From NCBI GenBank assembly GCA_964607065.1, contig CAZSIJ010000011.1:58459-82458 (forward strand): a stretch of DNA of 24,000 nucleotides. The letters run 5' to 3'. This DNA comes from an uncultured Desulfobulbus sp. GTDB lineage: Bacteria; Desulfobacterota; Desulfobulbia; Desulfobulbales; Desulfobulbaceae. The notes under the pieces were generated by a model. That model saw only the letters and a program-made list of their open reading frames with translations. It was not told the DNA's origin and made no database searches. Made by a program: the position numbers and the translations under genes. Below are positions 3,124 to 24,000 of this stretch, piece by piece (within the stretch, counting starts at the first letter, position 1; every line of letters starts with the position of its first letter).

Positions 3124-3254
3124 CTGCTACCTCCTTGATGTACAGTTACACTGCTAAGTACGCATGACGACCAGACACACCTCAACTATAAAAAACGGTA
3201 CAAAATTCTTTTGTGTGAGTTGTATAAAAGCAAAAACAAACCTGTGCAACATTT

Positions 3255-3260
3255 ATTATA
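3255..3260 (-). promoter_or_regulatory. Candidate sigma70 -10 hexamer (perfect TATAAT on minus strand) for the group-1 hydrogenase operon
   Basis: The complement of 3255-3260 reads TATAAT, about 130 nt upstream of the small-subunit ATG. No good -35 is present (CTAATT/TAATTG at 16-17 nt). It is bracketed by the inverted repeat GTGCAA(3244-3249)/TTGCAC(3263-3268). Confidence 0.3.
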
Positions 3261-3263
3261 TTT

Positions 3264-3282
3264 TGCACAATTTGCACAATTA
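3264..3282. promoter_or_regulatory. 19-nt motif TGCACAATTTGCACAATTA (copy 1), candidate operator shared with the hypF upstream region
   Basis: It is 17/19 identical to 7648-7666 in the same orientation. It lies 141-159 nt upstream of the small-subunit ATG. It is part of a cluster of four TGCAC/GTGCA half-sites (3244-3248, 3264-3268, 3273-3277, 3283-3287), including the perfect palindrome TGCAC-AATTA-GTGCA at 3273-3287. Confidence 0.4.
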
Positions 3283-3426
3283 GTGCAGTTTGCTTATGTG
3301 CGAGTGAGATAATTGATGAGCCAAATGAGTTTACGGAGGTCAGGGTAAGCGATGTGATATTTAGGAGTAATTTATATGGATGGCGGAGCACGGTGCGATT
3401 GATGCTATAAAGGCTGCCAGGGTGTC

Positions 3427-4929: not shown

Positions 4930-5204
4930 TCCGGTGCTCCAGGCAAGCGGCCTTGATGTCCAAGCGTTTCGGCCATCTGTCGCATGAGTTTGAGGTTGTA
5001 CTCGGCATCTTCAACAGTCAGGGTGCGAATGGCAAATCCAGCATGAATGATGACATATTCGCCGACCAGTGGGATTCGGTCAGCCATTTCCAGTCGGATT
5101 TCCTTGCGGATGCCGTCACTTTCAACCAGGGCGACGCCGGGATCGAGCAGCTCATCGCTCCCGCCTCTAATTTCGACAACTTGCATTGGGATAGCTAGAC
5201 ACAT
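4926..5204 (-). CDS. hypC: Hydrogenase assembly chaperone HypC/HupF family
   Basis: 92-aa ORF that begins with the diagnostic MCLAIPMQVVEI (essential Cys2). An AGGAGGT SD is present. Its start overlaps the hypF 3' end by 10 nt. Confidence 0.9.
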   Translation of the reverse strand: MCLAIPMQVVEIRGGSDELLDPGVALVESDGIRKEIRLEMADRIPLVGEYVIIHAGFAIRTLTVEDAEYNLKLMRQMAETLGHQGRLPGAPE

Positions 5205-7519: not shown

Positions 7520-7647
7520 AGCATTTGGTTGTGGCAGGTTGATGAGGGCTTTGTCATGGGGTGACGGTGGATATACCTCAGACAGGAAGCCATACTGTAG
7601 CAGTAAGGAATTGTTTATACCACCTCTTTTTCAATGCTTGAACAGTA

Positions 7648-7666
7648 TGCCCAATTTGCATAATTA
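7648..7666. promoter_or_regulatory. 19-nt motif TGCCCAATTTGCATAATTA (copy 2), candidate operator or internal promoter element upstream of hypFCD
   Basis: It is 17/19 identical to 3264-3282 in the same orientation. It lies 129-147 nt upstream of the hypF ATG (7519) and 10 nt downstream of the stop of the small Cys4 gene. It overlaps the short palindrome TATGC-N7-GCATA (7646-7662). Confidence 0.4.
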
Positions 7667-7675
7667 CCCCTCTTC

Positions 7676-7930
7676 TTACCCCTCACCCAAAGCTTGGCGC
7701 TGAATTTCACGATAACGTTTGGAGTGGACGATCTTTTGTTTTTCCAGATCTTCAATTTCTTCCCGGCTCAAATGGATAAGCCCGCAGACTGGACAGGAGA
7801 GATCCATGTCATCGTGAGCGGCGCGCTGTTTGAGTTCGTCGGCTGTCATGTGTCCGACATAGCCGCAGGCACAGTTCGGTGCTTCGACCCTGACTACTTT
7901 TCGTTGTTTTGTTTTGTTATTCTCGTTCAT
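7676..7930 (-). CDS. Small hypothetical Cys4 (CxC...CxxC, zinc-ribbon-like) protein with charged helical C-terminus
   Basis: The ORF track gives 7676-7975, which uses a TTG start. The first ATG (complement of 7928-7930) gives 84 aa: MNENNKTKQRKVVRVEAPNCACGYVGHMTADELKQRAAHDDMDLSCPVCGLIHLSREEIEDLEKQKIVHSKRYREIQRQALGEG. It is on the same strand as its neighbours, wedged between the Sec hydrogenase large subunit and hypF. There is no obvious SD, I recognise no family, and the start is uncertain. Confidence 0.5.
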   Translation of the reverse strand: MNENNKTKQRKVVRVEAPNCACGYVGHMTADELKQRAAHDDMDLSCPVCGLIHLSREEIEDLEKQKIVHSKRYREIQRQALGEG

Positions 7931-7983: not shown

Positions 7984-9429
7984 TTAGCGTTGCAAAATCC
8001 TGATGCTTCGGCCCTGATGGTCATAGAGGGTGACTGCCAATGCCAGACCGCCATCCAGGCGGTGCGTCGCGCAGGAAATTCAGGGGTCATAGGCGCGGAC
8101 CGCCATCTCGATCCGGTTGAGCATCTCTTCGTCAAATTCACCGTCGCAGATCAGGCTGGAAGCTGCCTGATGCACGCTCAGGTTCATTGGCGCGATATTG
8201 TGGGTGGTGCCGACGATGAGATTGGCCTTGGTGATACAGCCATTGTCATCAGTGGTGTAATCGTGGATCAAGGTGCCACGAGGCGCTTCAACATGACCAA
8301 TGCCCCGACCTGCCTGTGGTGTAGCCGGATTGCGTATGGCAGGGTCCGTGATAGTATCGTCTGCCAGTAGCTCCAAGGTCCTTTCACAGGCGTAAACCAG
8401 TTCAATCAGCCGGGCCCAGTGGTACAACAGGGTGCCCTGGGCGGGGCGTCCAAATTGTTCACGAAAAGCCTCCAGTTCTGCCTGGGCCCTTGGAGTGGCA
8501 ATGCGGTCGCAAACATTGAGGCGGGCCAGAGTGTTGACCCGGTAGATGCCTTTGGGTGCTGCTGGATCGAGGGAGAAACCCTCGCGCCAGGATTTGGCAT
8601 AGACCATCTTGGCTGTGGACCAAGGCTCGACATGTTCGCTCAGATGCAGTTCATAGTCACTTGCCGGGAAATCGATAGATTCGCCATTGGGATGCATCAA
8701 CCGCAGCAAGCCGTCGTAGAGTTGCAGGTTTCCCTGCGCATCGACCGCACCCAGAAAGCCGGTAGTGATGGCGCCCAAGGATTGCATCTCCTCCCGAAAG
8801 CGGCCGAAGACTTTGTCTTTCGCATAGTCGAGGGCAAAGGATGCAAAATCGAGCAGCAGGGCGGCGTCTCGTTGCAACTCTTGGCGTTCCTCATTGCTCA
8901 TCGGTTTGGCAAAACCGCCGACCACTCCGGCTACCGGATGGATGGCCTTGCCGGCAAATCGCTCCAGCATCATTTGCCCCAGTTGCCGCATGTGAACGAC
9001 GCGGGCCGCCAGTTCCGGGTCCTTGCGCACCATGCCCATGATATTGCGGACCGAATAGTCGCTGTCCGGGCCAAGAACAAAATCAGGAGCTGCAAGAAAG
9101 AAAAAGTGAAGGATTTTGTCGTGGATGTGCGCCATAACCTGGCAGAGTTCACGCAATCGGTGGCCGGCTGGGGTGGGGGTAACCCCGAAACAGCCGTCAA
9201 TAGCCTTTACTGCTGCCAGGTGATGCATCCAGGGGCAGATGCCGCAGATTCGGCTGACAATCCGTGGAATCTCCTCAGCTGGCCGCCCGATAACGAACTG
9301 CTCGAAACCACGAAGAGCAGCGATCTCCACACGGGCATCACTGACCCGGCCGCTATCATCTAGGTGAATGGCGATGCTGGCGTGGCCTTCAATTCTGGTG
9401 ACAGGATGGATATGGATAACCTGCGCCAT
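7984..9429 (-). CDS. mvhA: [NiFeSe]-hydrogenase large subunit, MvhA/VhuA-like (group 3c), selenocysteine encoded by in-frame TGA at 8080-8082
   Basis: The likely true start is the ATG at 9429 (MAQVIHIHPVTRIEGHASIAI...RICGICPWMHH); the 51 upstream codons in the track ORF are not hydrogenase-like. The track ORF ends ...VRAYDP at a TGA. Reading through on the minus strand gives DP-U-ISCATH-RLDGGLALAVTLYDHQGRSIRILQR-TAA (stop at 7984-7986). That is the canonical DPCxxCxxH Ni site with Sec at the first Cys, plus a 25-aa protease-cleaved tail. The product is 481 aa with Sec at residue 450. Confidence 0.85.
8044..8066 (-). promoter_or_regulatory. Candidate bacterial SECIS hairpin directing Sec insertion at UGA 8080-8082
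   Basis: The minus-strand RNA reads 5'-ACCGCC-UGGAU-GGCGGU-3' (8063->8047), a perfect 6-bp GC-rich stem with a G-containing 5-nt loop. After one C/C mismatch it is extendable by G-U and C-G pairs. The stem starts 16 nt after the UGA, a spacing compatible with known bacterial SECIS elements. Confidence 0.5.
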
Positions 9430-9472
9430 GATTACAAAATCCTCAGAGTGGTAAGGGAGCGGTTTCCCTGCG

Positions 9473-10393
9473 TCAGTTCTTCTTTCGGGCCGGCTTAAGC
9501 AGGCCGTGAGCGCCACTGAAGCGCAACAGCGATTTGCGGTCAACAAGAGCACGGTGATCGATACCGTTGCTGGCCAGCGCATTCATCATGTCCAGAAGTT
9601 GATTGCCGCCGGGTTGTACCGGCCCATAACAGCCACGACAGGGAACACGAGCCTGAAGGCAAAGGGGTGTACCTTTGCCGCCGCAGCCACCGGCGGTAAC
9701 CGGTCCCATGCAAACCAAGCCCTGTTCAAGCAGGCATTGCATCCCGCTGATCGGCTGGTCGCGGTCATAGTCAGCATTGTGCAGAAACCGTTGGACTGGG
9801 GCCATTTTTTTCTTCCCCTCCCGGATAGTAGGGCAGGTCTCGCAGACGCTCTTCTGTGGCAGCTGGAATGCTTCCTTGTTGACCAACGCCTTGATAACCG
9901 CCCCAATCAATTGCGGTTGGGGCGGGCATCCGGGCAGGCTGACATCGACCCTCACTTTTTCATCGACACTGTAGACTCGGTCAAGAAAAGCAGGGGCAGA
10001 TGAGGGGGATATCTCATTATCGACGGTGCCGGCTGTAAATACGGTGTGCAGTGTGTCGGCTGTCGACCATTGATTGCGCATCGCTGGAATACCGCCGTGG
10101 GTGGCGCAGGTGCCAAGCGCAATCAGGGTCCGACATTGTTTGCGCATCTCTTGCAGCACCTGGAGATGCTCCTGGTGGGCAACGCCGCCGGAGACCAGGC
10201 CGATATCCGCTTCAGGCAGCGAGAGGGGTGCTCCTTCTCCCCGCTGACCCCCATATTTATGGTCCATAAGCAGGGGAAAATGAACAATTTCTGCCTGATC
10301 GAACAAATCAAGCAATTGCTCCCCCCAATTGAGCATGGAAATTTCACACCCGGAACAGGCATGCAGCCATTCAAAGTTGAGCTTGGGTTTCAT
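9473..10393 (-). CDS. mvhG: [NiFe]-hydrogenase small subunit, MvhG-like (cytoplasmic, no signal peptide)
   Basis: 306-aa ORF: MKPKLNFEWLHACSGCEISML...ALGTCATHGGIP...LPGCPPQP... plus C-terminal Cys clusters (CETCP, GGCGGKGTPLC..CRGCYGP). No Tat motif is present. It lies directly upstream of the large subunit. Confidence 0.9.
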   Translation of the reverse strand: MKPKLNFEWLHACSGCEISMLNWGEQLLDLFDQAEIVHFPLLMDHKYGGQRGEGAPLSLPEADIGLVSGGVAHQEHLQVLQEMRKQCRTLIALGTCATHGGIPAMRNQWSTADTLHTVFTAGTVDNEISPSSAPAFLDRVYSVDEKVRVDVSLPGCPPQPQLIGAVIKALVNKEAFQLPQKSVCETCPTIREGKKKMAPVQRFLHNADYDRDQPISGMQCLLEQGLVCMGPVTAGGCGGKGTPLCLQARVPCRGCYGPVQPGGNQLLDMMNALASNGIDHRALVDRKSLLRFSGAHGLLKPARKKN

Positions 10394-10417
10394 CAGGTTT
10401 GCTCAATCTCATAGTAT

Positions 10418-10825
10418 CTAGTCCGCCGATTGCTCGGATTGTAACACCGCCAACCGTCCGCACATGTTGCGGAAGGCCTCGACCAACCGTTCCGGTTCGG
10501 CCGAGGAAACCCAGGTCAGTTGGAATTGCTCGGGCGCGTAGCCAAGGTCATCAAGGGTGTCGGTAATCACTTCCGCCCTGGCCAGGGCCATTTCGTTGCC
10601 TTTGATATAGTGACATTCACCGAGGTGGCAACCAATGATCATGACCCCTGCCGCCCCTTGCGCCAGTGCATGCAGGACCATCTCCGGATGAACCATGCCT
10701 GAGCACATGACCCGGATGATCCGTATCGATCCGGGGTATTGCAGGCGAGAAATACCAGCCAGGTCGGCGGCGGCATAGGAGCACCAGTTGCAGCAGAAGG
10801 CGATGATTTTCTGTTCCCGGTTCAT
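10418..10825 (-). CDS. mvhD: MvhD-like [2Fe-2S] hydrogenase delta subunit / HdrA adaptor
   Basis: Start is the ATG at 10825 (MNREQKIIAFCCNWCSYAAADLAG...RVMCSGMV...IIGCHLGECHY), 135 aa, with the typical MvhD Cys pattern. The ATG overlaps the TGA of the upstream hdrA-like gene (ATGA at 10822-10825). The track ORF adds 10 unlikely N-terminal codons. Confidence 0.88.
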   Translation of the reverse strand: MNREQKIIAFCCNWCSYAAADLAGISRLQYPGSIRIIRVMCSGMVHPEMVLHALAQGAAGVMIIGCHLGECHYIKGNEMALARAEVITDTLDDLGYAPEQFQLTWVSSAEPERLVEAFRNMCGRLAVLQSEQSAD

Positions 10826-13800
10826 AGCGATGCCTCTGGAGAAAGCTCCGCGCACAGGGCAGCGTCAATCTGGGCTTCGATTTGATCATAGGTGAATCCG
10901 GAGATGGTGATGCCCCGCTTCGGACAGGTCCCCTGGCAGATGCCGCAACCTTTGCACAGGGCCTGGTTTATGGTCACTGATTTTTTGACTGAGCCATCCT
11001 CGTCCTGGTAGGTTACCAGGTGGATGGTCAAGTAGGGGCAAACATCAATACACAAGCCGCAGCCATCGCAGCGTTCCGGGTCAACCAGAGCTGTGTTGGG
11101 TTCCAGAGCGATTTCTTTGCGGGCCAGGAGACGACCGGCCTTGGCAGCGGCTGCTAGAGCCTGTGAAATCGACTCTTCCAGAGGTTTGGGATAGTGGGCC
11201 AGTCCAGCAACGAAAATGCCGTCGACGTTAAAGTCCATCGGCCGAAGCTTAGCGTGGGCTTCCTGGAAAAAGCCATCGGCGTTCAAGGGGAGCTTAAACA
11301 TGTTGGCCAGTTCCACGGCCTCCTGGCTGGCAAGGGTGGCAGCCGCGAGCACCACCATATCGGCCTTGATTTCCAGCGGCCTGTGGAGGACATGATCCCA
11401 GACCTCGACCAGTACTCCAGTATCTTCACGGCTGATCTTCGGCGGCCCGTGCAGTTCATAGTTGATGAAGATGATGCCCAATTCACGGGCCTGGTTGTAG
11501 ATGCGTTCGCGTTGGCCGTAGGTGCGGATTTCGCGATAAAGGATGTAGATCTGCCGCGAAGGTACTTCTTTTTTTAACTTGATGGCGCTTTGAATCGAAT
11601 GGGTGCAGCAGGATTTCGAACAGTAAGGTCGCTCCTTGTTACGAGAGCCGACACACTGAATGAAGACAAAGGATTTGCCATTTGCCACTCTGGTCTCATT
11701 GTGCATGTGCAGTTTGTCGAACTCAATCGATGCGACCACCTTGGGGATTTTACCGTATTCGAATTCCTCGGGAATATAACGTTTGGCGCCAATGGTAATA
11801 ATCGTAGCACCGTGTTCGATCGTTTGTTTCCGGTTTGTGCCGGTTTTGATAGTGGTGTTGAAGTTGCCGACATGGCCGGTGACCTCTATGACCGTGCTGT
11901 TATAGAAAACCTCGATGTTCGGGTTGTTCTGTACCTCTTCGTTGAGTCCCTTGAGGAATCGGGGCACATGTTCGCCGTTCCAGGTCTGAAAAAGATGGAG
12001 GGCATTACCGCCCAACTGCGACGATTTTTCGATAAGATGGATGTGGAATCCTTGTTGGGCAAGATTCAGCGCTGAGATCATGCCGGCTACGCCTCCGCCG
12101 ATGATCAGGGCCGAGGGGGTAATCGGGATCCGCAGTGGTTTGAGAGCTGTTTGGGTGGCTACCTTGACTACCGCCATCTTGACCAGATCCTTGGCTTTGC
12201 GGGTGGCTGTTTCCGGCTCCTGATTGTGTACCCAGGCATTCTGGTTGCGGATATTAGCCATCTCAAACAGATATTCGTTGATTCCTGCAGATTTAAGCGT
12301 CTTGCGGAACAGCGCTTCATGAGTTCTCGGGGTGCAGGCAGCAACCACAATCCGGTTCAGGCCATTATCCCTGATCTGTTGCACGATGAGATCCTGGGTG
12401 TCCTGGGCACAGGTGAAAAGATTACGCCCCACATGCACGACCTGCGGCAGGGTTTTGGCATAGGCGGTGAGTTCCTCGACATCGATGACGCCAGCGATGT
12501 TGGTGCCGCAATGACAGACGAAAACTCCAATCCGTGGTTCCTGGAGACGTACATCGAGTTCAATCGATGGGGGGGTCGTTTTAGTCCTGGTGTTGCGGGC
12601 GCTCGACAGCAATGACGATACACTGGCTGCGGCTGCGGAACCGCCAATCACCGATTGGGGAATGTCGCGCGGTCCGTTAAAAGCGCCACAGGTAAAGATA
12701 CCTTTTCTGGAGGTGTGGACCGGCATGAAGGCTGAGATAGAGGCAAACCGGTCCGGGGTCATGTGGATACCGATGGTCTCAGCCAATTTGACCATTGAGT
12801 CCGGTGTTTCCAGGCCGACCGAAAGGACTACTAGGTCAACGATCTCCTCGACCTGTTTACCCTGAGGGCTGATGTAGTGAAGGCGCAGGTCACCCTTGGT
12901 CCCTTTCGGTTCCACCCCATGAATGCGGGAACGGATAAATTTAACCCCGTATTCTGAGCGGGCCCGTTCGTAATAGCGGTCAAATTCTTTGCCTGAGGTC
13001 CGCATGTCCATGTGGAAAATGGAAACTTCGAGCTCTGGATTGACCTCTTTCGCCATGACCGCTTCCTTGATCGCATACATACAGCAGACCGAGGAGCAGT
13101 ATTCATTGTTGCAGCGGTTTTTATCTCGGCTGCCGATGCATTGCAGAAAAGCTATCTTCTTTACCGGTTCACCATCGGAGGGACGGGTCAGAATGCCGTC
13201 GGTAGGGCCGTTTGGGGAGAGGTAGCGCTCGAATTGGAGCGAGGTGATAACGTTGGGATAGATGCCATGTCCCCAGACCTTGGCTTTGGACGGATCAAAG
13301 GTTTGGAACCCAAGAGCCATGACCACCGCTCCAACCCGGAGTTCGTGATCATGTTCCTGGTCGTCGAAGTTGATGGCTCCAGGTGGACAGATCTCTGCAC
13401 AGATGCCGCAGGTTCCCGGTTGGTTTATTCTCAGGCAGGCCTCAGGGTCAATCTGGTATTTGAGCGGCACAGCCTGAGGATATTTAATATAGATGGCTTT
13501 GCGTTTGGCGATGTTGCTGTTGAAGGAATCGTCGACACTTTTGGGACACTGAGCGCTGCACTGGCCGCAGGCGATACACTTGCTGGTGTCGACATAGCGG
13601 GGATATTTCCGGACCCGAATGGTGAAGTCACCTGCCTGGCCACTGATATCGACCACCTGAGAAAGGGTCATGATGTTGATGTTGGGGTGGCGTCCGCATT
13701 CGACCAGTTTTGGGGCGATAATGCACATTGAGCAGTCGTTGGTAGGGAAAACCTTGTTGTATTGGGGCATGGCCCCGCCAATGGCACCGGTTTTCTCCAC

Positions 13801-13920
13801 CAGGTAGACCAGGAATCCTAAGTCAGCGAGATCCAAGGCTGCCTGCATCCCGGAGATGCCACCGCCCACCACCATGACTGCACCGCTCATAGTATTGTCA
13901 GACATGTGTTGTCGTTCCAT
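10822..13920 (-). CDS. hdrA: Double-module HdrA-like flavoprotein (1032 aa; two FAD-binding modules, HdrA N-domain in the middle, inserted and C-terminal ferredoxin domains)
   Basis: - Residues ~14-435 are an HdrA thioredoxin-reductase-like module (VVGGGISG, FPTNDCSMC, inserted ferredoxin CIACGQCSAQCP...CGICAEICP, CIGSRD...CSSVCC).
- Residues ~462-590 resemble the HdrA N-terminal domain (IGVFVCHCGTNIAGVIDV).
- Residues ~603-935 are a second FAD module (IIGGGVAG, CVGSRNKERPYCSKSCC) that lacks the TNDCSxC motif.
- Residues ~945-1005 are a 2x[4Fe-4S] ferredoxin (CDGCGLCIDVCP, CKGCGICQGTCP).
- The start codon choice (13920 versus downstream ATGs) is uncertain because no SD is present. Confidence 0.88.
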   Translation of the reverse strand: MERQHMSDNTMSGAVMVVGGGISGMQAALDLADLGFLVYLVEKTGAIGGAMPQYNKVFPTNDCSMCIIAPKLVECGRHPNINIMTLSQVVDISGQAGDFTIRVRKYPRYVDTSKCIACGQCSAQCPKSVDDSFNSNIAKRKAIYIKYPQAVPLKYQIDPEACLRINQPGTCGICAEICPPGAINFDDQEHDHELRVGAVVMALGFQTFDPSKAKVWGHGIYPNVITSLQFERYLSPNGPTDGILTRPSDGEPVKKIAFLQCIGSRDKNRCNNEYCSSVCCMYAIKEAVMAKEVNPELEVSIFHMDMRTSGKEFDRYYERARSEYGVKFIRSRIHGVEPKGTKGDLRLHYISPQGKQVEEIVDLVVLSVGLETPDSMVKLAETIGIHMTPDRFASISAFMPVHTSRKGIFTCGAFNGPRDIPQSVIGGSAAAASVSSLLSSARNTRTKTTPPSIELDVRLQEPRIGVFVCHCGTNIAGVIDVEELTAYAKTLPQVVHVGRNLFTCAQDTQDLIVQQIRDNGLNRIVVAACTPRTHEALFRKTLKSAGINEYLFEMANIRNQNAWVHNQEPETATRKAKDLVKMAVVKVATQTALKPLRIPITPSALIIGGGVAGMISALNLAQQGFHIHLIEKSSQLGGNALHLFQTWNGEHVPRFLKGLNEEVQNNPNIEVFYNSTVIEVTGHVGNFNTTIKTGTNRKQTIEHGATIITIGAKRYIPEEFEYGKIPKVVASIEFDKLHMHNETRVANGKSFVFIQCVGSRNKERPYCSKSCCTHSIQSAIKLKKEVPSRQIYILYREIRTYGQRERIYNQARELGIIFINYELHGPPKISREDTGVLVEVWDHVLHRPLEIKADMVVLAAATLASQEAVELANMFKLPLNADGFFQEAHAKLRPMDFNVDGIFVAGLAHYPKPLEESISQALAAAAKAGRLLARKEIALEPNTALVDPERCDGCGLCIDVCPYLTIHLVTYQDEDGSVKKSVTINQALCKGCGICQGTCPKRGITISGFTYDQIEAQIDAALCAELSPEASL

Positions 13921-14010: not shown

Positions 14011-15468
14011 TTATCGCGGTTCCCCTGGTTTGACTAAGGCCTTTGCCACCAGTTCCCACAGGAATTGAACCTCGATATTGAGGTTGAATTCACGGTTCAG
14101 CGATTTTTCCAGTTGGTCTTTGCAGTTTTGGCAGGAGGTGATAACCAGCTTCGCTCCTGATTCACTGATTTGCCTGGCCTTGATCCGGCCATGGAAGACC
14201 CGTTCGGCTCCATAGGGGCTGGCCCAGGCTCCGCCACCGGCGCCGCAGCAGTAATTCTCCTCACGATCGGGGATCAGGTCGACATATTTCGTGCAGCAAG
14301 CCTGGGTCAACGATCGGGCCTCCTCAAAATAACCGTGGCCAAAGGTCTTGAGCGATTTTCTGCCGTAGTTGCAGGAGTCGTTAAACGTCACCAGTTTATT
14401 GTGAACAACTGGTGCGAGGGTAATTCGTTTTTCATGGAGATATTCGAGCAATAGGTCGAAAACCGTATAGATTTTGAACTGATTGAGAGATTCGGGAAAC
14501 CAGTGTTCCAGGGCGTACCGGGTGGCGTAATAGGCATGGCCGCACTCGGGCAAAAGCAGTGCCGTGCAGTTGAGCCGCTCTATGTTGTCGATGATCCGTT
14601 CGGCCATGGTGCGCATGGCACTGTAGTCGCCAGAGTAAACCCCCCAGTTGACCCCTTCCCAGTTTTCCGAAGAGATAGTCCACGATTCACCGGCAGCATG
14701 GAAAATCTTCCACCACCAGGTCAGGCTTTCAGGTTCGGCGAAGGGTAGTTTGGAGTTGACGGTCACAAGCATTCTGGCGCCACGGACATCGATAGGGGTG
14801 ATGAAACCGGGACAAGATGACTCGGCCAATTCCTCGCCCAGTTCTTTTAAGAGAGTGATGAAGTCGTCCTTGGGGATGCCGAGGTTGTTTCCTTTTTCAA
14901 GACAGGTGACCACGCCTTTCTGGATGGCAGCGGGTACTTTTTCTCGATCGCGGCGGGAACGGATACGGCGCATCAATTGTAATATCTCGACATTCATCGG
15001 ACAGACAACTTCGCACTTACCGCACATGGTGCATTTCCATGGCCAGTCGCTGGCAAGCAGTTCTTCATCAAGGCCAAGGAAGGCCATGCGAATGATTTTG
15101 CGTGGATCGAGATCGTCAACCCCCGATATTGGGCAGGCTCCGGCACAAGAGCCGCAGGTTAGGCAAACATCGGCCATGGCCGGCTGGTTGTAGAGTGGGT
15201 TGGTCTTGAGTCCCAGGCGTACCGAAGGGAGAGCGCTTTCATTTTTCGGTAAAGAAGGAGCTTCGGTCTTGCTGTTGGGTTCCGGTGCTATCCGGGGTTC
15301 CCTGCCAAATTTATCACAGAGCCGTTTGTAATCCTCCCACTGGATCTGGTATCGTCGTCCCGGGCCTTCCTGTGCCGGCAATGCGCCCGAATTAATCCAG
15401 TTGCGGATGGTGTTGCGGTGTACTCCGAATTCTTCAGCCAGTTCATTGACTTTGATCTCGTAGATCAT
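14011..15468 (-). CDS. HdrD-like heterodisulfide-reductase-type protein (HdrC-like 2x[4Fe-4S] + HdrB-like CCG domain) with N-terminal excisionase/MerR-type helix-turn-helix
   Basis: - Start is the ATG at 15468, which overlaps the protease stop (ATGA at 15465-15468), giving 485 aa.
- Residues 1-50 (MIYEIKVNELAEEFGVHRNTIRNWINSGALPAQEGPGRRYQIQWEDYKRL) match the pattern of excisionase-family HTH domains.
- A ~45-aa Pro/Ser-rich linker follows.
- Next come CLTCGSCAGACP...CTMCGKCEVVCP.
- The CCG region has NDSC...YCCGAGGG...SCQNC. A first CCG-like segment is degenerate (PECGH). Confidence 0.85.
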   Translation of the reverse strand: MIYEIKVNELAEEFGVHRNTIRNWINSGALPAQEGPGRRYQIQWEDYKRLCDKFGREPRIAPEPNSKTEAPSLPKNESALPSVRLGLKTNPLYNQPAMADVCLTCGSCAGACPISGVDDLDPRKIIRMAFLGLDEELLASDWPWKCTMCGKCEVVCPMNVEILQLMRRIRSRRDREKVPAAIQKGVVTCLEKGNNLGIPKDDFITLLKELGEELAESSCPGFITPIDVRGARMLVTVNSKLPFAEPESLTWWWKIFHAAGESWTISSENWEGVNWGVYSGDYSAMRTMAERIIDNIERLNCTALLLPECGHAYYATRYALEHWFPESLNQFKIYTVFDLLLEYLHEKRITLAPVVHNKLVTFNDSCNYGRKSLKTFGHGYFEEARSLTQACCTKYVDLIPDREENYCCGAGGGAWASPYGAERVFHGRIKARQISESGAKLVITSCQNCKDQLEKSLNREFNLNIEVQFLWELVAKALVKPGEPR

Positions 15469-15998
15469 GGAGCGGTTGCCTCCAAGGTGGTGTAACGGGC
15501 GACAATTCGTAAAATCCGGTGACAAGCGTCTTGCACAGCAGCAAGCATGGTCGACGAGAGTCCTGGCGCAATGTGGTCAGGGATGACAGCGGTTTGGGCG
15601 ATCAACAGCACTACCTCAATGCCGGTCTCTTCCTGGAGCTCTCTGAGTAAATTGACCGTAGGAAACTGGTGCAGGGAAAAATCGTGGATTTTTTTCGCTG
15701 CAATTGTCGAAGGCGCGCATTCCAGGACTACGCCCGGAGCGCCGCTCTGTTGGTGACCCGCATCAATAATAATGAGCAGTTCCGGCCGCAGGCTGGGTAG
15801 CATGAGGTAATCGAGCAGGTATTCGCGGATACCGGTGCCGGCATCAACGAGGTAGACCCCTTCCGGCAGGTTGAGGGGTTGTAGCGCTTCGATAACCGCC
15901 GGGCCAAAGCCGTCATCACCAAGCAGGACGTTGCCGCAGCCGAAAATAACCACAGGCGGTGCAGGTGTCACAGGATGGGTATTGTGCGAGATGTGCAT
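15465..15998 (-). CDS. Hydrogenase maturation endopeptidase (HyaD/HybD/FrhD family)
   Basis: 177-aa ORF with VVIFGCGNVLLGDDGFGPAVIEAL...YLVDAGTG...LIIIDA...HQF. This is the metal-binding E/D...D...H pattern of the C-terminal processing proteases. It is the first gene of the hdr/mvh cluster. Confidence 0.88.
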   Translation of the reverse strand: MHISHNTHPVTPAPPVVIFGCGNVLLGDDGFGPAVIEALQPLNLPEGVYLVDAGTGIREYLLDYLMLPSLRPELLIIIDAGHQQSGAPGVVLECAPSTIAAKKIHDFSLHQFPTVNLLRELQEETGIEVVLLIAQTAVIPDHIAPGLSSTMLAAVQDACHRILRIVARYTTLEATAP

Positions 15999-16234
15999 AG
16001 TGTTTCAACTATGGCATTATTTTTCGTGAGTATGCAAGAGGAAAATAGGTCTTGTCCGCTTCCAATCGTTGACGCGGTACCGAGGATGGAGGCCGATTTT
16101 TGGTATTGCTGGGGCAGTAGTTAAAAGCATACTGTTATTGTCACTTGTTCCGATGGGAGAGTGTGGTGGAGCCAATACGAACAAGCTAAGGGCATGTGTC
16201 CTCTGGTTTTTTCCTTTTTGCCGCTTGGGATGAG

Positions 16235-16243
16235 TGGTATAAG
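16235..16243 (+). promoter_or_regulatory. Candidate extended -10 promoter (TGgTATAAG) for lutABC-mobB
   Basis: The plus strand reads gagTGgTATAAGt, about 110 nt upstream of the lutA ATG. No convincing -35 is present. The 9-mer ACAATTTGC (16246-16254), identical to the core of the 19-nt motif copy 1, sits at the predicted transcription start. Confidence 0.3.
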
Positions 16244-16352
16244 TGACAATTTGCGAGTGTCGTCGATAGCCTTTGTATCGTTGTCTACGACAGGGCTTAC
16301 AAGCCGCCTGGCATTGCCCTTTTGTCCCTGTTCATTGTTTCCAGGATTGCCT

Positions 16353-17093
16353 ATGTTCAAGCCGACACCTGTAACTCTGTTTATTCCATGCCTGGTGGAT
16401 GCCTGTTTTCCCGAGGTGGGGGATGCCATGGTCAGGGTTTTTGATCGGCTCGGAATTTCCCTTGCCTATCCCGAGGGGCAGACCTGTTGCGGCCAACCAG
16501 CTTTCAACAGCGGTTATCGGCGCGAGGCGACTGTTGCGGCACAGCGATTTATCGAGTTGTTTGCCAGGGCGGAGGTCATTGTCTGCCCGTCTGGTTCCTG
16601 CGTTGCCATGGTTCGCCGTAACTATCCCGAACTCTTTCAAGATGATCTTGAGATGCTGGAACGTTCTGGTGATATAGCTAGAAAGACTTTTGAGTTTACC
16701 GAATATCTGGTCGATGTTCTGGGTGTAACTGATATCGGTGCTGTCTTTTCAGCAAGGGCTACTTACCATGACTCCTGCCACTTGATACGTACCTTAGGAA
16801 TCCGGGAACAACCTCGGCAACTGCTCCGCCATGTCCAGAATCTGCACTTGATTGAGATGGTCAGCTCCGATACCTGTTGCGGCTTCGGCGGCACCTTCAG
16901 TGTCAACTATCCCGATATCTCCCTGGCTCTGGTGGATGATAAAATTGACAATATCCTGAAAACCGGCGCCGACACTGTGGTGGGCTGCGACGTTAGCTGT
17001 CTGATGAATATTCGCGGCCGAATGACCCGAAGAAAGGAAACCCTTCAGGTGTTACATATTGCCCAGGTGCTGGCTTCTGCGGGGCAAGCATGA
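16353..17093 (+). CDS. lutA: LutA/YkgE-type Fe-S oxidoreductase (two CCG domains), lactate utilisation
   Basis: Start is the ATG at 16353 with an AGGA SD 6 nt upstream: MFKPTPVTLFIPCLVDACFPEVGDAM...GQTCCGQPAFNSGY...DTCCGFGGTFS..., 246 aa. The 64 upstream codons in the track ORF are not LutA-like. Confidence 0.88.
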   Translation: MFKPTPVTLFIPCLVDACFPEVGDAMVRVFDRLGISLAYPEGQTCCGQPAFNSGYRREATVAAQRFIELFARAEVIVCPSGSCVAMVRRNYPELFQDDLEMLERSGDIARKTFEFTEYLVDVLGVTDIGAVFSARATYHDSCHLIRTLGIREQPRQLLRHVQNLHLIEMVSSDTCCGFGGTFSVNYPDISLALVDDKIDNILKTGADTVVGCDVSCLMNIRGRMTRRKETLQVLHIAQVLASAGQA

Positions 17094-22641: not shown

Positions 22642-24000
22642 TTAGGTGTCCAAAACTTTCCGTATTTTGGCAGCCAAATCCTTTTTTGACAGCGGTTTCT
22701 GGATGAAATGGACGCCTTCGTCCAAAACGCCCTGATGGGTGATGACTTCGGCTGTGTAGCCGGACATGAAAAGGTATTTCATGCTCGGATAAAGGGTGGA
22801 GAGACGATGTGCCAGGTCGCGGCCGTTCATCCCCGGCATAATTACATCGGTCAGGAGTAGTTGGATTTCGCCCTGGTGATTCTCGACCATGCGCAACGCC
22901 TCACCAGGACCGGCCGCACTGAGAACGGTGTAACCCAGGCTTTCCAATAAACGTTTCGCTACGACCAGGAGGGCGGATTCATCTTCCACCAGCAATATGG
23001 TTTCACCGCGACTCAATAGAGATTCAGCCACTCTTGAATCCTTTGTTTCGACAATGCCAGTTGTTTCACGGGGAATGTATATTCTGAAAGTCGTTCCATT
23101 GCCTGGTTCGCTATAGACGTTGATGAACCCTCGGTTCTGTTTCACGATTCCGTAAACGGTGGCCAAGCCAAGACCGGTGCCTTTGCCGATTTCCTTAGTG
23201 GTGAAAAAAGGCTCGAAAATCTGTTCAAGGGTATCTTTATCCATGCCGCAGCCGCTGTCGCTGACCGCTAGCATTACAAACGCACCAGAGGTGAATCCGA
23301 CATTCCTGGCACAATAAGCATCATCAAAAACGACGTTTGCCGTCTCGATGGTTATCTTGCCCACCCCTCCGATGGCATCTCGGCCATTGACGCACAAATT
23401 AGCGAGGATCTGATCTAACTGAGAGGGATCGAACTTAACCGGCCACACTTCAAAGGCCGGCATCCAGGCCAGAGAAATATCCTCACCTATGAGACGCCGC
23501 AGCATTTTGAGCATGCCATCAACGGTCACGTTCAGGTCCAATACCACTGGGGCTATCGCTTGTTTACGGGCAAAGGCCAGCAGTTGCCGAGTGATGTCTG
23601 TTGAGCGTCTGGCAGCATCGAAAACTTGCTGGAGGTCTTCATGCAACGGGTCAGACGGAGCCACTCTTTCCAAAGCCATTTCCGTATACCCCAGGATTAC
23701 ACTGAGCATGTTGTTGTAATCATGGGCAACGCCTCCGGCCAGGCGTCCTATGGATTCCATCTTTTGGGCCTGCTGGAACTGTGCCGTCAACGCCAACTCT
23801 GCGGTGATGTCCCGCTTAACGCCTACGTAGTTGATGATCTTCTCGGCGGCATCGAACACCGGAGAAATCGAGGCGTCCTCTGTGTATAATCTGCCGTCCT
23901 TGCGCTTGTTGACCAAACGTCCATGCCAGACTTGGCCGCTTATTATTGTTTCCCACAGATTTTGGTAAAAGGCTTGGTCCTGTTGGCCGCTCTTGAGGAG
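22642..24000 (-). CDS. Hybrid sensor histidine kinase (PAS - HisKA - HATPase_c - receiver); 5' end beyond window
   Basis: The frame stays open upstream of the track's TTG to position 24000 (…[40 protein letters not shown]…, PAS-like). It has an H-box ([11 protein letters not shown]) and an ATPase G-boxes region (DSGCGM…[13 protein letters not shown]). The C-terminal receiver reads ILLVEDE…[13 protein letters not shown]…MSGY…KP. Confidence 0.88.

What the first reader, a model, noticed from the sequence alone, without database searches (positions are those of the whole stretch)
14011..15468. DNA-binding HTH fused to an HdrD-like heterodisulfide-reductase catalytic subunit
The second gene of the hdr/mvh cluster encodes one polypeptide with three parts:
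1. An N-terminal ~50-aa excisionase/MerR-type helix-turn-helix (VNELAEEFGVHRNTIRNWINSGALP...YQIQWEDYKRL).
2. A Pro/Ser-rich linker.
3. A complete HdrC-like di-cluster ferredoxin plus an HdrB-like CCG domain (YCCGAGGG...SCQNC).

The HTH codons are in frame with no stop. The ATG is translationally coupled (ATGA) to the upstream protease gene.

I am not aware of a described Hdr catalytic subunit carrying a DNA-binding domain. It could be a redox- or thiol-sensing regulator that reports the state of the bifurcating complex. It could be a moonlighting subunit. The HTH might also have been recruited for protein-protein docking.
Basis: partly seen in the sequence, partly recalled or inferred. Interest (0 to 1): 0.85.

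Follow-up and report, generated by a model that had tools for sequence, protein, structure and literature searches.

The report
DNA-binding domain on a heterodisulfide-reductase subunit
A subunit of a hydrogen-oxidising, electron-bifurcating enzyme complex in sulfate-reducing bacteria carries a conserved DNA-binding domain, and a matching conserved DNA repeat sits on the promoter of its own operon, so the enzyme probably also controls hydrogenase gene expression.

Summary
ORF 14011-15468 (-) encodes a 485-aa protein with three parts:
- a MerR/Xis-type winged HTH (res 1-54; Pfam HTH_17, above its cut-off);
- a hypervariable linker (55-97);
- an HdrD-like Fe-S module (98-485).

The fusion is not an artefact. 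All 57 aligned homologs, and every well-covered locus among 82 relatives, keep the HTH, the ATG and a Shine-Dalgarno. About 320 species genomes encode a relative. The HTH is the most constrained part of the protein.

The body is more precisely DsrK/HmcF/TmcB-type: one CCG motif plus a PECGH cysteine. It sits in a conserved operon, HycI > HTH-HdrD > large HdrA > MvhD > MvhG > MvhA.

New here:
- A tandem direct repeat, TGCACA-N3-YGCACAA (9-nt period), overlaps the promoter and start of this operon in 54-70 of 82 loci. It is almost absent elsewhere.
- A second exact copy lies on the promoter of the window's periplasmic Hyb-type hydrogenase.
- The same HTH is fused to selenocysteine HdrA in a sister operon type, again with the repeat.

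The best reading is an enzyme subunit that also autoregulates H2-metabolism operons, like a trigger enzyme. DNA binding and the controlling signal are inferred, not shown. I found no published description.

The parts
15307..15468 (-). Winged HTH domain, residues 1-54 (b1 2-6, a1 7-14, a2 recognition helix 18-27, b2 32-34, b3 39-43, a3 44-53)
   Evidence: Pfam HTH_17 at 35 bits, above GA 27. AF2 pLDDT is 85-91 over the domain. Foldseek matches RacA-DNA 5i44, BldC-DNA 6amk/6ama, Pukovnik Xis 4j2n and MerR-family DBDs. H17 R18 N19 T20 R22 N23 W24 are invariant in 57 homologs.
15178..15306 (-). Flexible linker, residues 55-97
   Evidence: Hypervariable in alignment A1. AF2 pLDDT is below 50 for residues 62-85. 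pN 0.40 / pS 0.66.
14011..15177 (-). HdrD-like (DsrK/HmcF/TmcB-type) Fe-S module, residues 98-485 plus stop
   Evidence: Best NCBIfam hits are HmcF, TmcB and DsrK, all far below their cut-offs. Foldseek matches M. smegmatis EtfD 9ojn, LutA, HdrB and HdrC. PDB sequence hits are to HdrC.
14989..15174 (-). Two CX2CX2CX3C ferredoxin motifs (C102/105/108/112 and C146/149/152/156)
   Evidence: Fer4_8 matches residues 99-160. All eight Cys are invariant in A1.
14536..14550 (-). PECGH motif (residues 307-311), remnant of the first CCG domain
   Evidence: Read directly from the sequence. P307 and G310 are invariant and H311 nearly so; C309 is S/A/G in some homologs. It corresponds to the T/GECGH catalytic-Cys motif of DsrK, HmcF and TmcB (PMC10861901).
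14110..14391 (-). Single complete CCG domain (C366, C407-C408-G409, C446, C449), predicted non-cubane [4Fe-4S] site
   Evidence: Pfam CCG matches residues 360-453. The cysteines are invariant.
15479..15483 (-). Shine-Dalgarno GGAGG for the HTH-HdrD gene, inside the 3' end of hycI
   Evidence: Sequence. A GGAG/GAGG element precedes the conserved ATG in most of the 82 loci.
15982..15997 (-). Candidate operator 1: tandem direct repeat TGCACAtctCGCACAA (9-nt period), overlapping the first ATG (15998) of hycI
   Evidence: Exact pattern match. It occupies the same position in nearly all related loci. An exact tandem lies in -300..+80 of the operon start in 54 of 82 loci, and with one mismatch allowed in 70 of 82. 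Elsewhere there are 3 exact sites in 1.30 Mb.
16008..16037 (-). Predicted sigma-70-type promoter of the operon: -35 TTGCAT 16037-16032, TG 16016-16015, -10 CATAGT 16013-16008
   Evidence: My reading of the sequence. The blocks cTTGCn...TGGCATAnT are conserved across Desulfobulbus-clade loci. The consensus scan did not list this site; it flagged an overlapping one, TTGAAA-16-CACAAT at 16008-15981. No TSS data.
3243..3302 (-). Candidate operator 2 on the promoter of the hybO/hybA-type periplasmic [NiFe] hydrogenase operon
   Evidence: Pair TTGTGCAAATTGTGCAA at 3279-3261, inverted relative to the gene, abuts a TATAAT at 3260-3255. Single TGCACA at 3248-3243 and CGCACA at 3302-3297. Exact match at 3264-3279 (+); sequence. 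The genes are HybO- and HybA-like. This was the only exact TGCACA-N3-BGCACA site outside the hdr promoters in the first 1.35-Mb scan.
7639..7663 (+). Weak third candidate: TGAACAgtaTGCCCAattTGCATAA, three degenerate units at 9-nt period upstream of hypF
   Evidence: Two overlapping 2-mismatch matches. On the hypF strand the last unit, TGTTCA, lies 19 nt upstream of a TATAAA. Low confidence.
15465..15998 (-). hycI/frhD-type hydrogenase maturation protease, first gene of the operon
   Evidence: Pfam HycI and TIGR00072.
10822..13920 (-). Large (1032-aa) HdrA-like flavoprotein
   Evidence: NCBIfam HdrA2/HdrA; Pfam Pyr_redox_2 and Fer4. It follows HTH-HdrD directly in every locus long enough to show it.
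8080..10855 (-). mvhD (10418-10855), mvhG (9473-10393), mvhA (8080 to about 9429)
   Evidence: Pfam FlpD, Oxidored_q6 and NiFeSe_Hases. NCBIfam VhuD, VhuG and VhuA as best hits, below their cut-offs.

Best explanation
**What the protein is**
The gene encodes a real, expressed two-module protein.
- Residues 98-485 form a DsrK/HmcF/TmcB-type HdrD-like iron-sulfur thiol/disulfide reductase. It has two cubane clusters, one CCG-bound non-cubane cluster and a PECGH cysteine.
- Operon structure suggests this module is the high-potential acceptor subunit of a soluble MvhAGD / large-HdrA electron-bifurcating hydrogenase complex. Its substrate is probably a protein-bound di- or trisulfide such as DsrC.
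- Residues 1-54 form a MerR/Xis-type winged HTH without a MerR dimerisation helix (BldC/RacA/Xis-like). A roughly 43-residue flexible linker joins the two modules.

**How it most likely works**
- The HTH most likely binds tandem 9-bp-period direct repeats, TGCACA-N3-YGCACAA. These overlap the -10/+1/start-codon region of the operon's own promoter, and also the promoter of the Hyb-type uptake hydrogenase.
- The subunit would then act as a trigger-enzyme-style autoregulator of H2-metabolism genes, most simply a repressor.

**What is shown**
- The fusion, its conservation and strong purifying selection on the HTH.
- The fold class of the HTH.
- The conserved operon.
- The conserved, position-specific repeat.

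**What is inferred**
- That the HTH is the factor binding the repeat.
- The sign of regulation.
- The signal that modulates binding: redox state, substrate occupancy, or assembly into the complex.
For: **The fusion is real and translated**
- HTH_17, Fer4 and CCG occur in one ORF and in 57 of 57 family members.
- A genome scan returned 322 stretches encoding a relative.
- The ATG and SD are conserved.
- HTH pN 0.06 / pS 0.77, against the body at 0.11 / 0.67 and the linker at 0.40 / 0.66.

**The HTH looks like a DNA binder**
- The recognition helix GVHRNTIRNWI is invariant while the linker is hypervariable.
- The AF2 fold is b-a-a-b-b-a.
- The closest solved structures are DNA-bound RacA, BldC, Xis and MerR-family DBDs.

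**The operon is conserved**
- Synteny is [HycI]-HTHHdrD-HdrA-MvhD-[MvhG-MvhA].

**A position-specific repeat accompanies the operon**
- TGCACAA occurs 0.94 times per locus in -200..-1, against 0.037 per 200 nt overall.
- 49 of 50 exact tandem sites in 1.35 Mb lie at the operon promoter. The 50th lies at the window's hyb promoter.
- 54 of 82 loci have an exact site and 70 of 82 have one with a single mismatch allowed.
- The repeat is kept in another order (Desulforhabdus, L001) and in L003.
- It appears in either orientation and on either side of the -10, which points to DNA-level recognition.
- The 9-bp period matches the BldC direct-repeat unit AATTxxxx(C) (PMC5859096).

**The HTH and the repeat travel together in a second context**
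- In HTH-HdrA operons L087-L090 the same HTH sits on HdrA and the same repeat is present.

**The body is DsrK-type**
- It has a single CCG motif plus ECGH, as DsrK, HmcF and TmcB do.
Against: **No direct evidence**
- There are no binding or expression data.

**Co-occurrence has limits**
- The repeat co-occurs with the whole operon, so it cannot separate the HTH from an unlinked regulator of this operon.
- The HTH helix and the motif are both nearly invariant, so there is no covariation to exploit.

**Weak points in the motif evidence**
- 12 of 82 loci lack a site even with one mismatch allowed (for example L002 and L083).
- The metagenome scan for the motif returned only chance matches.

**Weak points on the protein side**
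- The isolated HTH has no net positive charge (9 K/R against 9 D/E, counted from the sequence).
- C309 of the ECGH motif is not strictly conserved in the family, so catalytic equivalence to DsrK is uncertain.
- NCBIfam scores are far below the HmcF, TmcB and DsrK cut-offs.
Confidence: 0.6

Rival explanations
1. The HTH is functional and conserved, but the TGCACA repeats are bound by some other regulator. The HTH would then serve another role: docking to a protein partner (for example DsrC or another complex), non-specific nucleoid tethering as in RacA, or binding a different DNA or RNA target.
For: - Co-occurrence of motif and operon cannot identify the binding protein.
- Hybrid histidine-kinase/receiver genes recur next to the operon in several loci (L003, L086, L087, L090).
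- The HTH has no net positive charge (counted from the sequence).
- A winged HTH acts as a protein-protein interface in BamF of class II benzoyl-CoA reductase (bioRxiv 10.64898/2026.04.10.717634).
Against: - The invariant residues are the polar face of the recognition helix (H17 R18 N19 T20 R22 N23) and the wing (G37, Y40). This is typical of nucleic-acid contact.
- All the nearest structures are DNA-binding domains.
- The motif follows the HTH-bearing gene in L087, where a separate promoter precedes HTH-hdrA.
- The 9-bp direct-repeat period fits BldC/Xis-type wHTH better than 10-11-bp response-regulator sites.
- The HTH is kept in operons without HycI or Mvh (L030-32, L041, L052), so it is not a docking site for those proteins.
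Confidence: 0.2
2. The protein is a dedicated one-component redox or thiol sensor-regulator. Its HdrD-like module has become a sensor only and is not a working subunit of the bifurcating complex.
For: - C309 of the ECGH motif is replaced by S, A or G in some homologs.
- Some genomes carry a second, HTH-less HdrD paralog near hdrA/mvhD (L002, L063, L072).
- One MAG (L086) has the HTH and HdrD as separate ORFs.
Against: - In the window and most loci this is the only CCG-domain gene in the operon, so HdrA would otherwise lack its acceptor subunit.
- All 13 cluster-binding Cys are invariant.
- The body is under strong purifying selection.
- The gene always directly precedes hdrA.
- In the sister family the HTH sits on HdrA itself, the bifurcating flavoprotein.
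Confidence: 0.12
3. The N-terminal HTH is not expressed because translation starts at Met98, or the fusion is an assembly or annotation artefact.
For: - An in-frame ATG exists at 15177.
- A few database entries show the HTH as a separate short ORF.
Against: - Met98 is not conserved.
- The ATG at residue 1 and its SD are conserved in the 82 loci.
- The HTH is the most constrained segment.
- The short entries are contig-end fragments, a frameshift-riddled contig (L085) or one MAG (L086).
Confidence: 0.02

Closest known systems
DsrK / HmcF / TmcB (single-CCG HdrD-like subunits of sulfate-reducer membrane complexes; DsrK reduces the DsrC trisulfide)
   Same: - Two cubane Fe-S motifs, one complete CCG motif and a conserved Cys in an xECGH motif (PECGH here).
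- These families give the best NCBIfam matches.
   Different: - Scores are far below the equivalog cut-offs (174 against 750; 169 against 735; 133 against 400).
- No membrane cytochrome b partner gene is present. The partner genes are HdrA, MvhD, MvhG and MvhA.
- It carries an N-terminal HTH.
- The ECGH Cys is not invariant in the family.
MvhAGD-HdrABC of hydrogenotrophic methanogens (PDB 5odc) and HdrD of HdrDE
   Same: - Genes for HdrA, MvhD, MvhG and MvhA sit with a HdrC+HdrB-like acceptor subunit.
- HdrC-like ferredoxin at the sequence level (E 4e-14 to 5odc_C) and HdrB-like fold.
   Different: - HdrB and HdrC are fused.
- One CCG motif instead of two.
- HdrA is a 1032-aa enlarged form.
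- The organism is a Desulfobulbus-type bacterium without CoM/CoB.
- The DNA-binding domain is added.
BldC (Streptomyces), and the RacA and Xis DNA-binding domains: MerR-like winged HTH without the MerR coiled coil
   Same: - Same fold (TM 0.6-0.76 normalised to the target).
- No dimerisation helix.
- BldC binds 9-bp direct repeats head-to-tail. The candidate operator here is a 9-nt-period direct repeat.
   Different: - BldC and Xis are small stand-alone proteins. Here the domain is tethered to a 390-residue Fe-S enzyme module.
- Sequence identity is only 20-30%.
- The target motif (TGCACA) differs.
- Binding is untested.
Trigger enzymes: PutA (RHH domain plus proline dehydrogenase/P5CDH), BirA, NadR (comparison from my own knowledge)
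   Same: - An enzyme polypeptide carries its own DNA-binding domain.
- A candidate operator lies on the promoter of its own operon.
   Different: - A different DBD class and a different enzyme class (an Fe-S subunit of a multi-subunit bifurcating complex).
- No evidence yet that substrate or redox state switches DNA binding.
HdrR of Methanosarcina barkeri (PMC11218639)
   Same: An HTH protein that binds the promoter of a heterodisulfide reductase operon.
   Different: - HdrR is a separate regulator protein, not part of an Hdr subunit.
- It is an activator of hdrBCA in an archaeon.

Membership tests
Pfam HTH_17 / MerR-Xis-type winged HTH | Profile match above the curated cut-off | tested here: met
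   35.0 bits against GA 27, E 1.8e-8. 57 of 57 homologs match.
Pfam HTH_17 / MerR-Xis-type winged HTH | b-a-a-b-b-a winged-helix fold resembling solved members | tested here: met
   AF2 pLDDT about 87. Foldseek matches RacA, BldC, Xis, MtaN, SoxR and NmlR DBDs at prob 0.9-1.0.
Pfam HTH_17 / MerR-Xis-type winged HTH | Sequence-specific DNA binding | not testable with these tools
   Only indirect evidence: a conserved tandem repeat on the operon's own promoter.
Classical MerR-family regulators | C-terminal coiled-coil dimerisation helix plus effector-binding region directly after the wHTH | tested here: not met
   After a3 (44-53) comes a disordered, hypervariable linker. The Pfam MerR (20.3 against 28.2) and MerR_1 (20.4 against 21.6) matches are below their cut-offs.
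BldC family | Small stand-alone wHTH protein | tested here: not met
   The domain is the N-terminus of a 485-aa protein.
BldC family | Head-to-tail binding to roughly 9-bp direct repeats | tested here: inconclusive
   The candidate operator is a direct repeat with a 9-nt period (8 in one clade). No binding data.
HdrB/HdrD (methanogen heterodisulfide reductase catalytic subunit) | [quoted passage not shown] | tested here: not met
   One Pfam CCG stretch, 360-453. The first CCG position is reduced to PECGH. The criterion is taken from PMC10861901.
HdrC/HdrD ferredoxin part | Two CX2CX2CX3C motifs | tested here: met
   C102/105/108/112 and C146/149/152/156 are invariant. HdrC in the PDB matches at E 5e-15.
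DsrK/HmcF/TmcB | Single CCG motif plus a conserved Cys in T/GECGH | tested here: met
   The window protein has PECGH (307-311) plus one CCG motif. The Cys is S, A or G in a minority of homologs.
DsrK/HmcF/TmcB | NCBIfam equivalog score and a membrane partner (DsrM/HmcE/TmcC) in the operon | tested here: not met
   Scores are 174, 169 and 133 bits against cut-offs of 750, 735 and 400. The neighbours are HycI, HdrA, MvhD, MvhG and MvhA.
Mvh-Hdr-type electron-bifurcating hydrogenase/disulfide reductase complex | Co-encoded HdrA flavoprotein, MvhD, [NiFe] small and large subunits, and a CCG-type acceptor subunit | tested here: met
   Pfam and NCBIfam assignments. Synteny is conserved across the related loci.
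Mvh-Hdr-type electron-bifurcating hydrogenase/disulfide reductase complex | Physical complex and bifurcating activity | not testable with these tools
   Needs biochemistry.
Trigger enzymes (PutA-like enzyme-repressors) | Enzyme and DBD in one polypeptide, with an operator at its own promoter | tested here: inconclusive
   The architecture is met. A candidate operator was found. Binding is not shown.
Trigger enzymes (PutA-like enzyme-repressors) | DNA binding switched by substrate or redox state | not testable with these tools
   No data.

The most novel reading that the evidence does not exclude
The whole Mvh-HdrA-HdrD bifurcating complex acts as a hydrogen/redox-sensing transcription factor. 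The flexible HTH arms of its Hdr subunits sit on 9-bp direct repeats at hydrogenase promoters (hdr-mvh, hyb and perhaps hyp). They would release or engage according to the reduction state of the Fe-S/flavin chain, or to occupancy by the DsrC-type substrate. The catalytic enzyme would then directly report H2 availability and electron-acceptor status to the H2 regulon, replacing the separate sensor-hydrogenase/kinase systems known from aerobic H2 oxidisers. The HTH being fused either to HdrD or to HdrA fits a property of the complex rather than of one active site.
Probability: 0.25. Interest if true: 0.9.

Novelty: new variant of a known kind. Interest (0 to 1): 0.75.

Why it matters
**The gap it addresses**
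- As far as I know, how sulfate reducers and syntrophs regulate cytoplasmic electron-bifurcating Hdr/Mvh complexes and their hydrogenases has hardly been studied.
- The many 'Hdr-like' proteins of these organisms have been treated purely as enzymes in the genome and proteome papers I could read.

**What it would add if true**
- A conserved DNA-binding domain on the Hdr subunits, in hundreds of species and two fusion contexts, comes with a conserved operator on hydrogenase promoters.
- Together they give a concrete, testable regulatory circuit for H2 metabolism in Desulfobacterota.
- It would be a new example of an energy-conserving redox enzyme that moonlights as a transcription factor.

**Practical value**
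- It supplies a defined motif and cultured strains for experiments. Candidates are Desulfobulbus oligotrophicus WP_199261917.1, D. elongatus, D. rhabdoformis, Desulfogranum spp. and Desulforhabdus amnigena WP_281794264.1.

Tried and rejected
**Searches that led nowhere**
1. Metagenome-wide scan for TTGCACANNNTGCACAA, meant to define a regulon. It returned 120 loci and none lay next to hyc, hdr, mvh or hyb genes.
2. Word-indexed homolog search with the HTH alone. It found only 13 candidates, all fragments of the same family.
   - The exhaustive search was more useful. HTHs at 67% identity or more are fragments of this family or its 491-aa representative. The roughly 50%-identity hits I checked were further fragments of the family, and two lower-ranked hits (P0176, P0203) revealed the HdrA fusions. 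The 30-40% hits with several matched stretches were not examined.
3. afdb50 fold search. The library was not available.
4. Rfam. No known RNA family matches in the window or in the promoter region.
5. Literature searches for an HTH-Hdr fusion. No description was found. Pereira et al. 2011 was not held under the id I tried, so the absence is not proof.

**Readings I considered and rejected**
6. Sigma-54 promoter for 'GGCAtagTTTGCA'. The GG-to-GC spacing is 8 nt, not the 10 required.
7. Protein-coding conservation as the cause of the repeat. The repeat lies variously upstream of, at, or overlapping the start codon, and in either orientation.
8. The first inverted repeat seen in the intergenic region (ATTGTCACTT / AAGTGACAAT at 16137-16250). 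It did not recur among the enriched upstream k-mers of related loci.
9. The invariant Cys51 in helix a3 as a redox switch. It is replaced by L, A, R or W in some HdrA-fused HTHs, so it is probably structural.
Full report
**1. Observation**

The ORF 14011..15468 on the minus strand exists as described and gives a 485-aa product.
- Its ATG (15468-15466) overlaps the TGA (15467-15465) of the upstream gene, a HycI/FrhD-type hydrogenase maturation protease.
- A GGAGG lies at 15483-15479.
- Pfam places HTH_17 on residues 6-42 (35.0 bits, gathering cut-off 27, E 1.8e-8). MerR, MerR_1 and TIGR01764 'excisionase' give weaker matches.
- Pfam places a di-cluster ferredoxin on residues 99-160 and one CCG domain on 360-453.

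**2. The HTH is translated and selected**

I aligned 57 full-length homologs at 51-88% identity (A1).
- The stretch G15-V-H-R-N-T-I-R-N-W-I25 is invariant or nearly so. It is as conserved as the cluster-binding cysteines.
- Residues 55-97 are hypervariable, and Met98 is usually L or W.
- All 57 members match HTH_17, CCG and Fer4.
- In the 82 related loci where the match starts at residue 1, the ATG (GTG in two) is kept, and most are preceded by GGAG/GAGG.

Nei-Gojobori counts between the window and 22 Desulfobulbus-clade orthologs:

| Region | pN | pS |
|---|---|---|
| HTH | 0.060 | 0.77 |
| Linker | 0.40 | 0.66 |
| Fe-S body | 0.108 | 0.67 |

The HTH is the most constrained segment. 'Split' database entries are contig-end fragments, one frameshift-riddled contig (L085) and one MAG with a stop in the linker (L086).

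**3. Anatomy**

*HTH domain.*
- AlphaFold2 with A1 gives mean pLDDT 87.6.
- The N-terminal domain is b1(2-6)-a1(7-14)-a2(18-27)-b2(32-34)-b3(39-43)-a3(44-53). Residues 62-85 have pLDDT below 50.
- A separate model of residues 1-58 has pLDDT 87.
- Foldseek against the PDB returns RacA DBD-DNA (5i44, up to 30% identity), BldC-DNA (6amk, 6ama), mycobacteriophage Pukovnik Xis (4j2n), HiNmlR, MtaN, SoxR and lambda gpNu1.
- These are all MerR/Xis-type winged-HTH DNA binders. There is no MerR coiled coil after the domain.

*Fe-S body.*
- It resembles M. smegmatis EtfD (9ojn, E 2e-14), LutA, HdrB and HdrC.
- Eight invariant Cys form two CX2CX2CX3C motifs.
- C366, C407-C408-G409, C446 and C449 form one complete CCG motif.
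- The position of the other CCG motif is reduced to P307-E-C-G-H311.
- This is the signature reported for DsrK, HmcF and TmcB: one CCG motif plus a conserved Cys in T/GECGH. DsrK has been shown to reduce the DsrC trisulfide (PMC10861901).
- HmcF, TmcB and DsrK are also the best NCBIfam hits. Their scores (174, 169 and 133 bits) are far below the equivalog cut-offs (750, 735 and 400).
- The body therefore works like a DsrK-type subunit but is not a member of those named families. It is also not a two-CCG HdrD.

**4. Context and distribution**

The window's operon on the minus strand is hycI (15465-15998) > HTH-hdrD > a 1032-aa hdrA (10822-13920) > mvhD > mvhG > mvhA. It is followed by a small ORF, hypF, a 92-aa ORF (4926-5204) and hypD. 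A hybO/hybA-type periplasmic hydrogenase operon comes next. lutABC is divergent.

A scan of one genome per species (185,579 species) found 322 stretches encoding a relative.
- The best 80 are Desulfobulbus, Desulfogranum, Desulfopila, Desulfocapsa(ceae), Desulfurivibrio and unclassified Desulfobacterales/Desulfobulbales MAGs.
- More distant members come from Desulforhabdus amnigena, Syntrophobacteraceae and Desulfobacteraceae.

tblastn of the window's proteins shows the core HTH-HdrD > large HdrA > MvhD in every locus long enough to show it.
- HycI lies upstream and MvhG-MvhA downstream in most.
- In L002 a formate-dehydrogenase-like gene replaces Mvh, and in some loci nothing follows.
- The window's exact protein is in public assemblies on a 130-kb contig, unnamed.
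- Source names for relatives are '4Fe-4S dicluster domain-containing protein', 'helix-turn-helix domain-containing protein' and 'excisionase family DNA binding protein'.

**5. A conserved candidate operator (new)**

K-mer counting on the 400 nt upstream of the first operon gene in 82 loci singled out TGTGCAA/TTGCACA.

*Enrichment.*
- TGCACAA occurs 77 times in the -200..-1 bin (0.94 per locus), against 0.037 per 200 nt overall.
- Anchored on the conserved GCGN motif of HycI, nearly every locus shows a tandem direct repeat TGCACA-N3-(T/C/G)GCACAA about 35-55 nt upstream. This includes Desulforhabdus L001 and L003/L004. One clade has an 8-nt period (TGCACAatGGCACAA).
- Across 1.35 Mb of loci plus window, 49 of 50 exact matches to TGCACA-N3-BGCACA lie at the operon promoter.
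- With 8- or 9-nt periods allowed, 54 of 82 loci have an exact site within -300..+80, and 70 of 82 have one with a single mismatch allowed. Elsewhere there are 3 exact sites in 1.30 Mb.

*The window copy.*
- It is 15997-15982 (-), TGCACAtctCGCACAA.
- It overlaps the first ATG of hycI (15998).
- It lies about 10 nt downstream of a promoter I read from the sequence: -35 TTGCAT 16037-16032, TG 16016-16015 and -10 CATAGT 16013-16008.
- Matching blocks are conserved in the Desulfobulbus clade. The consensus scan lists a different, overlapping site, and there are no TSS data.
- In Desulfocapsaceae-type loci the repeat directly abuts the same CATAGT box.
- Many loci have a second pair in the opposite orientation 70-130 nt upstream, over the -35 region.

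*Why this is DNA-level.* The position relative to the start codon varies, the orientation varies, and the core promoter is overlapped. This argues for a DNA-level operator rather than coding or RNA conservation. Rfam finds nothing there.

*Other sites in the window.*
- The single 'far' exact site in that scan is in the window at 3264-3279. The pair TTGTGCAAATTGTGCAA abuts a perfect TATAAT (3260-3255) upstream of hybO. Further single TGCACA and CGCACA units lie at 3248-3243 and 3302-3297.
- A degenerate triple unit at 9-nt period lies upstream of hypF (7639-7663). I give it low weight.

**6. A sister fusion (new)**

An exhaustive HMMER search of 1.84 billion representatives with the 58-aa HTH gave the following.
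- Every hit at 67% identity or more is a fragment of this family or its 491-aa representative.
- The roughly 50%-identity hits I inspected are further fragments of the family.
- Two lower-ranked hits (P0176, P0203) have the HTH fused to the N-terminus of HdrA.
- The 30-40% hits with several matched stretches were not examined.

A follow-up search returned more than 100 clusters of roughly 148-aa gene calls with 'HTH_17 + FAD_oxidored'.
- Those aligned all end at ...TFPTNDC(A/S)M. They are truncated where HdrA has Cys in the window (TNDCSMC), so this is probably a selenocysteine UGA.
- Their operons are HycI > HTH-HdrA > MvhD > [HdrD-like] > FrhB-like > MvhG > MvhA.
- The same repeat is present. 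L088 has four units directly before the hycI ATG. L087 has TGCATAactTGCACAA directly before the HTH-hdrA ATG behind its own TTGACA box. L089 and L090 have pairs flanking the -35.
- Across both fusion types A11, V16, H17, R18, N19, T20, W24, I25 and Y40 are invariant.

The HTH and the repeat thus travel together in two architectures. The HTH is always on the first hdr gene after hycI.

**7. Mechanism**

*Shown.*
- A conserved, selected wHTH is tethered by a flexible linker to an Fe-S subunit.
- The Mvh/HdrA operon is conserved.
- A conserved, promoter-overlapping direct repeat accompanies it.

*Inferred (confidence about 0.6).*
- The HTH binds the repeat. The 9-bp direct-repeat period matches the head-to-tail binding unit of BldC, the closest characterised stand-alone relative of this fold (AATTxxxx(C), PMC5859096).
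- Sites over the -10/+1 region and over the -35/spacer most simply imply repression by occlusion. MerR-like activation from within a long spacer at the hyb promoter cannot be excluded.

*Not known.*
- The signal is unknown. Candidates are the redox state of the cluster chain, substrate (DsrC-type) occupancy, or assembly status. In the last case the free subunit represses, giving stoichiometric feedback.
- The HdrA-fused variant favours a property of the complex over HdrD active-site chemistry.

**8. Comparison with what is known**
- It works like a trigger enzyme (PutA, BirA, NadR; from my own knowledge), but with a different DBD and enzyme class.
- Its DBD works like BldC/Xis but is not a stand-alone protein.
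- Its body works like DsrK/HmcF/TmcB but fails their membership criteria.
- HdrR of M. barkeri regulates an hdr operon but is a separate protein.
- The genome and proteome papers on Hdr-like proteins of sulfate reducers that I could read do not mention a DNA-binding domain on them. Five text searches found no description.
- Pereira et al. 2011 was not held under the id I tried, so prior mention cannot be excluded.

**9. Verdict**
- I rate it a new variant of a known kind (an enzyme-regulator), interest 0.75.
- The main uncertainty is the absence of any binding or expression data.

Noticed in passing
L087-L090; proteins P0176, P0203, P0257, P0278-P0396: A large sister family has the same HTH (VHRNT..NWI) fused to the N-terminus of HdrA. 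The gene calls aligned end at ...TFPTNDC(A/S)M, which implies an in-frame UGA (probable selenocysteine). Operon: HycI > HTH-HdrA > MvhD > [HdrD-like] > FrhB-like > MvhG > MvhA, with the same TGCACA repeats upstream.
   Followed up: partly
window 3243-3302: A second exact copy of the tandem repeat (TGCACAATTTGCACAA, 3264-3279 +) abuts a TATAAT box (3260-3255, minus strand) upstream of a hybO/hybA-type periplasmic [NiFe] hydrogenase operon (2029-3123, 974-2002). Extra single TGCACA and CGCACA units flank it.
   Followed up: partly
window 7639-7663: A degenerate triple unit, TGAACAgtaTGCCCAattTGCATAA, at an exact 9-nt period upstream of hypF. On the hypF strand a TATAAA follows 19 nt after the last unit. 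Possibly a weak third operator.
   Followed up: no
window 15982-16037: The first ATG of hycI (15998) lies inside the repeat and only about 10 nt downstream of the -10 box I read at 16013-16008. The hycI mRNA may therefore be leaderless or nearly so. The conserved HycI core starts at residue 17, with an in-frame GTG at 15953.
   Followed up: partly
window 7676-7930 (-): A small 84-aa ORF between mvhA and hypF with CxC...CPxC cysteines (MNENNKTKQRK...). It has no assigned function and was not searched.
   Followed up: no
window 8080-9582 and 16161-17093: The longest-ORF starts are probably too far upstream. The mvhA ORF overlaps mvhG by 110 nt and homologs align from about residue 52, so the likely start is near 9429. 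Homologs of lutA align from about residue 65, so the likely start is ATG 16353.
   Followed up: partly
L086 5001-6470 (GCA_038205495.1): In one MAG the HTH (51 aa) and the HdrD body (392 aa) are separate ORFs, divided by a stop in the linker. This is either an assembly error or a natural split showing that the modules can be separate.
   Followed up: no
L003/L004 (11470-14544), L088-L090: HdrA is called as two pieces (for example 59 + 947 aa in L003/L004). MvhD in L088-L090 and the HdrD-like gene in L089 are also split or truncated. This is consistent with selenocysteine codons. The window's HdrA has Cys (TNDCSMC) and is intact.
   Followed up: no
window 22642-23916; L003 6609-9257; L086 412-4407; L087 102-2102; L090 1883-4875: Hybrid histidine kinase/receiver genes without a DNA-binding output recur next to these operons. 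In the window one lies about 6.6 kb from the operon. A possible link to regulation of the operon was not examined.
   Followed up: no
L002 8606-9943; L063 15700-16863; L072 9936-11114: Some genomes carry a second, HTH-less HdrD-like paralog (about 34% identity) next to the HTH-HdrD/HdrA/MvhD genes.
   Followed up: no
window residue C51 (codon 15318-15316): A Cys in helix a3 of the HTH is invariant in the 57 HdrD-fused homologs. It is replaced by L, A, R or W in some HdrA-fused HTHs, so it is probably structural rather than a redox switch.
   Followed up: partly
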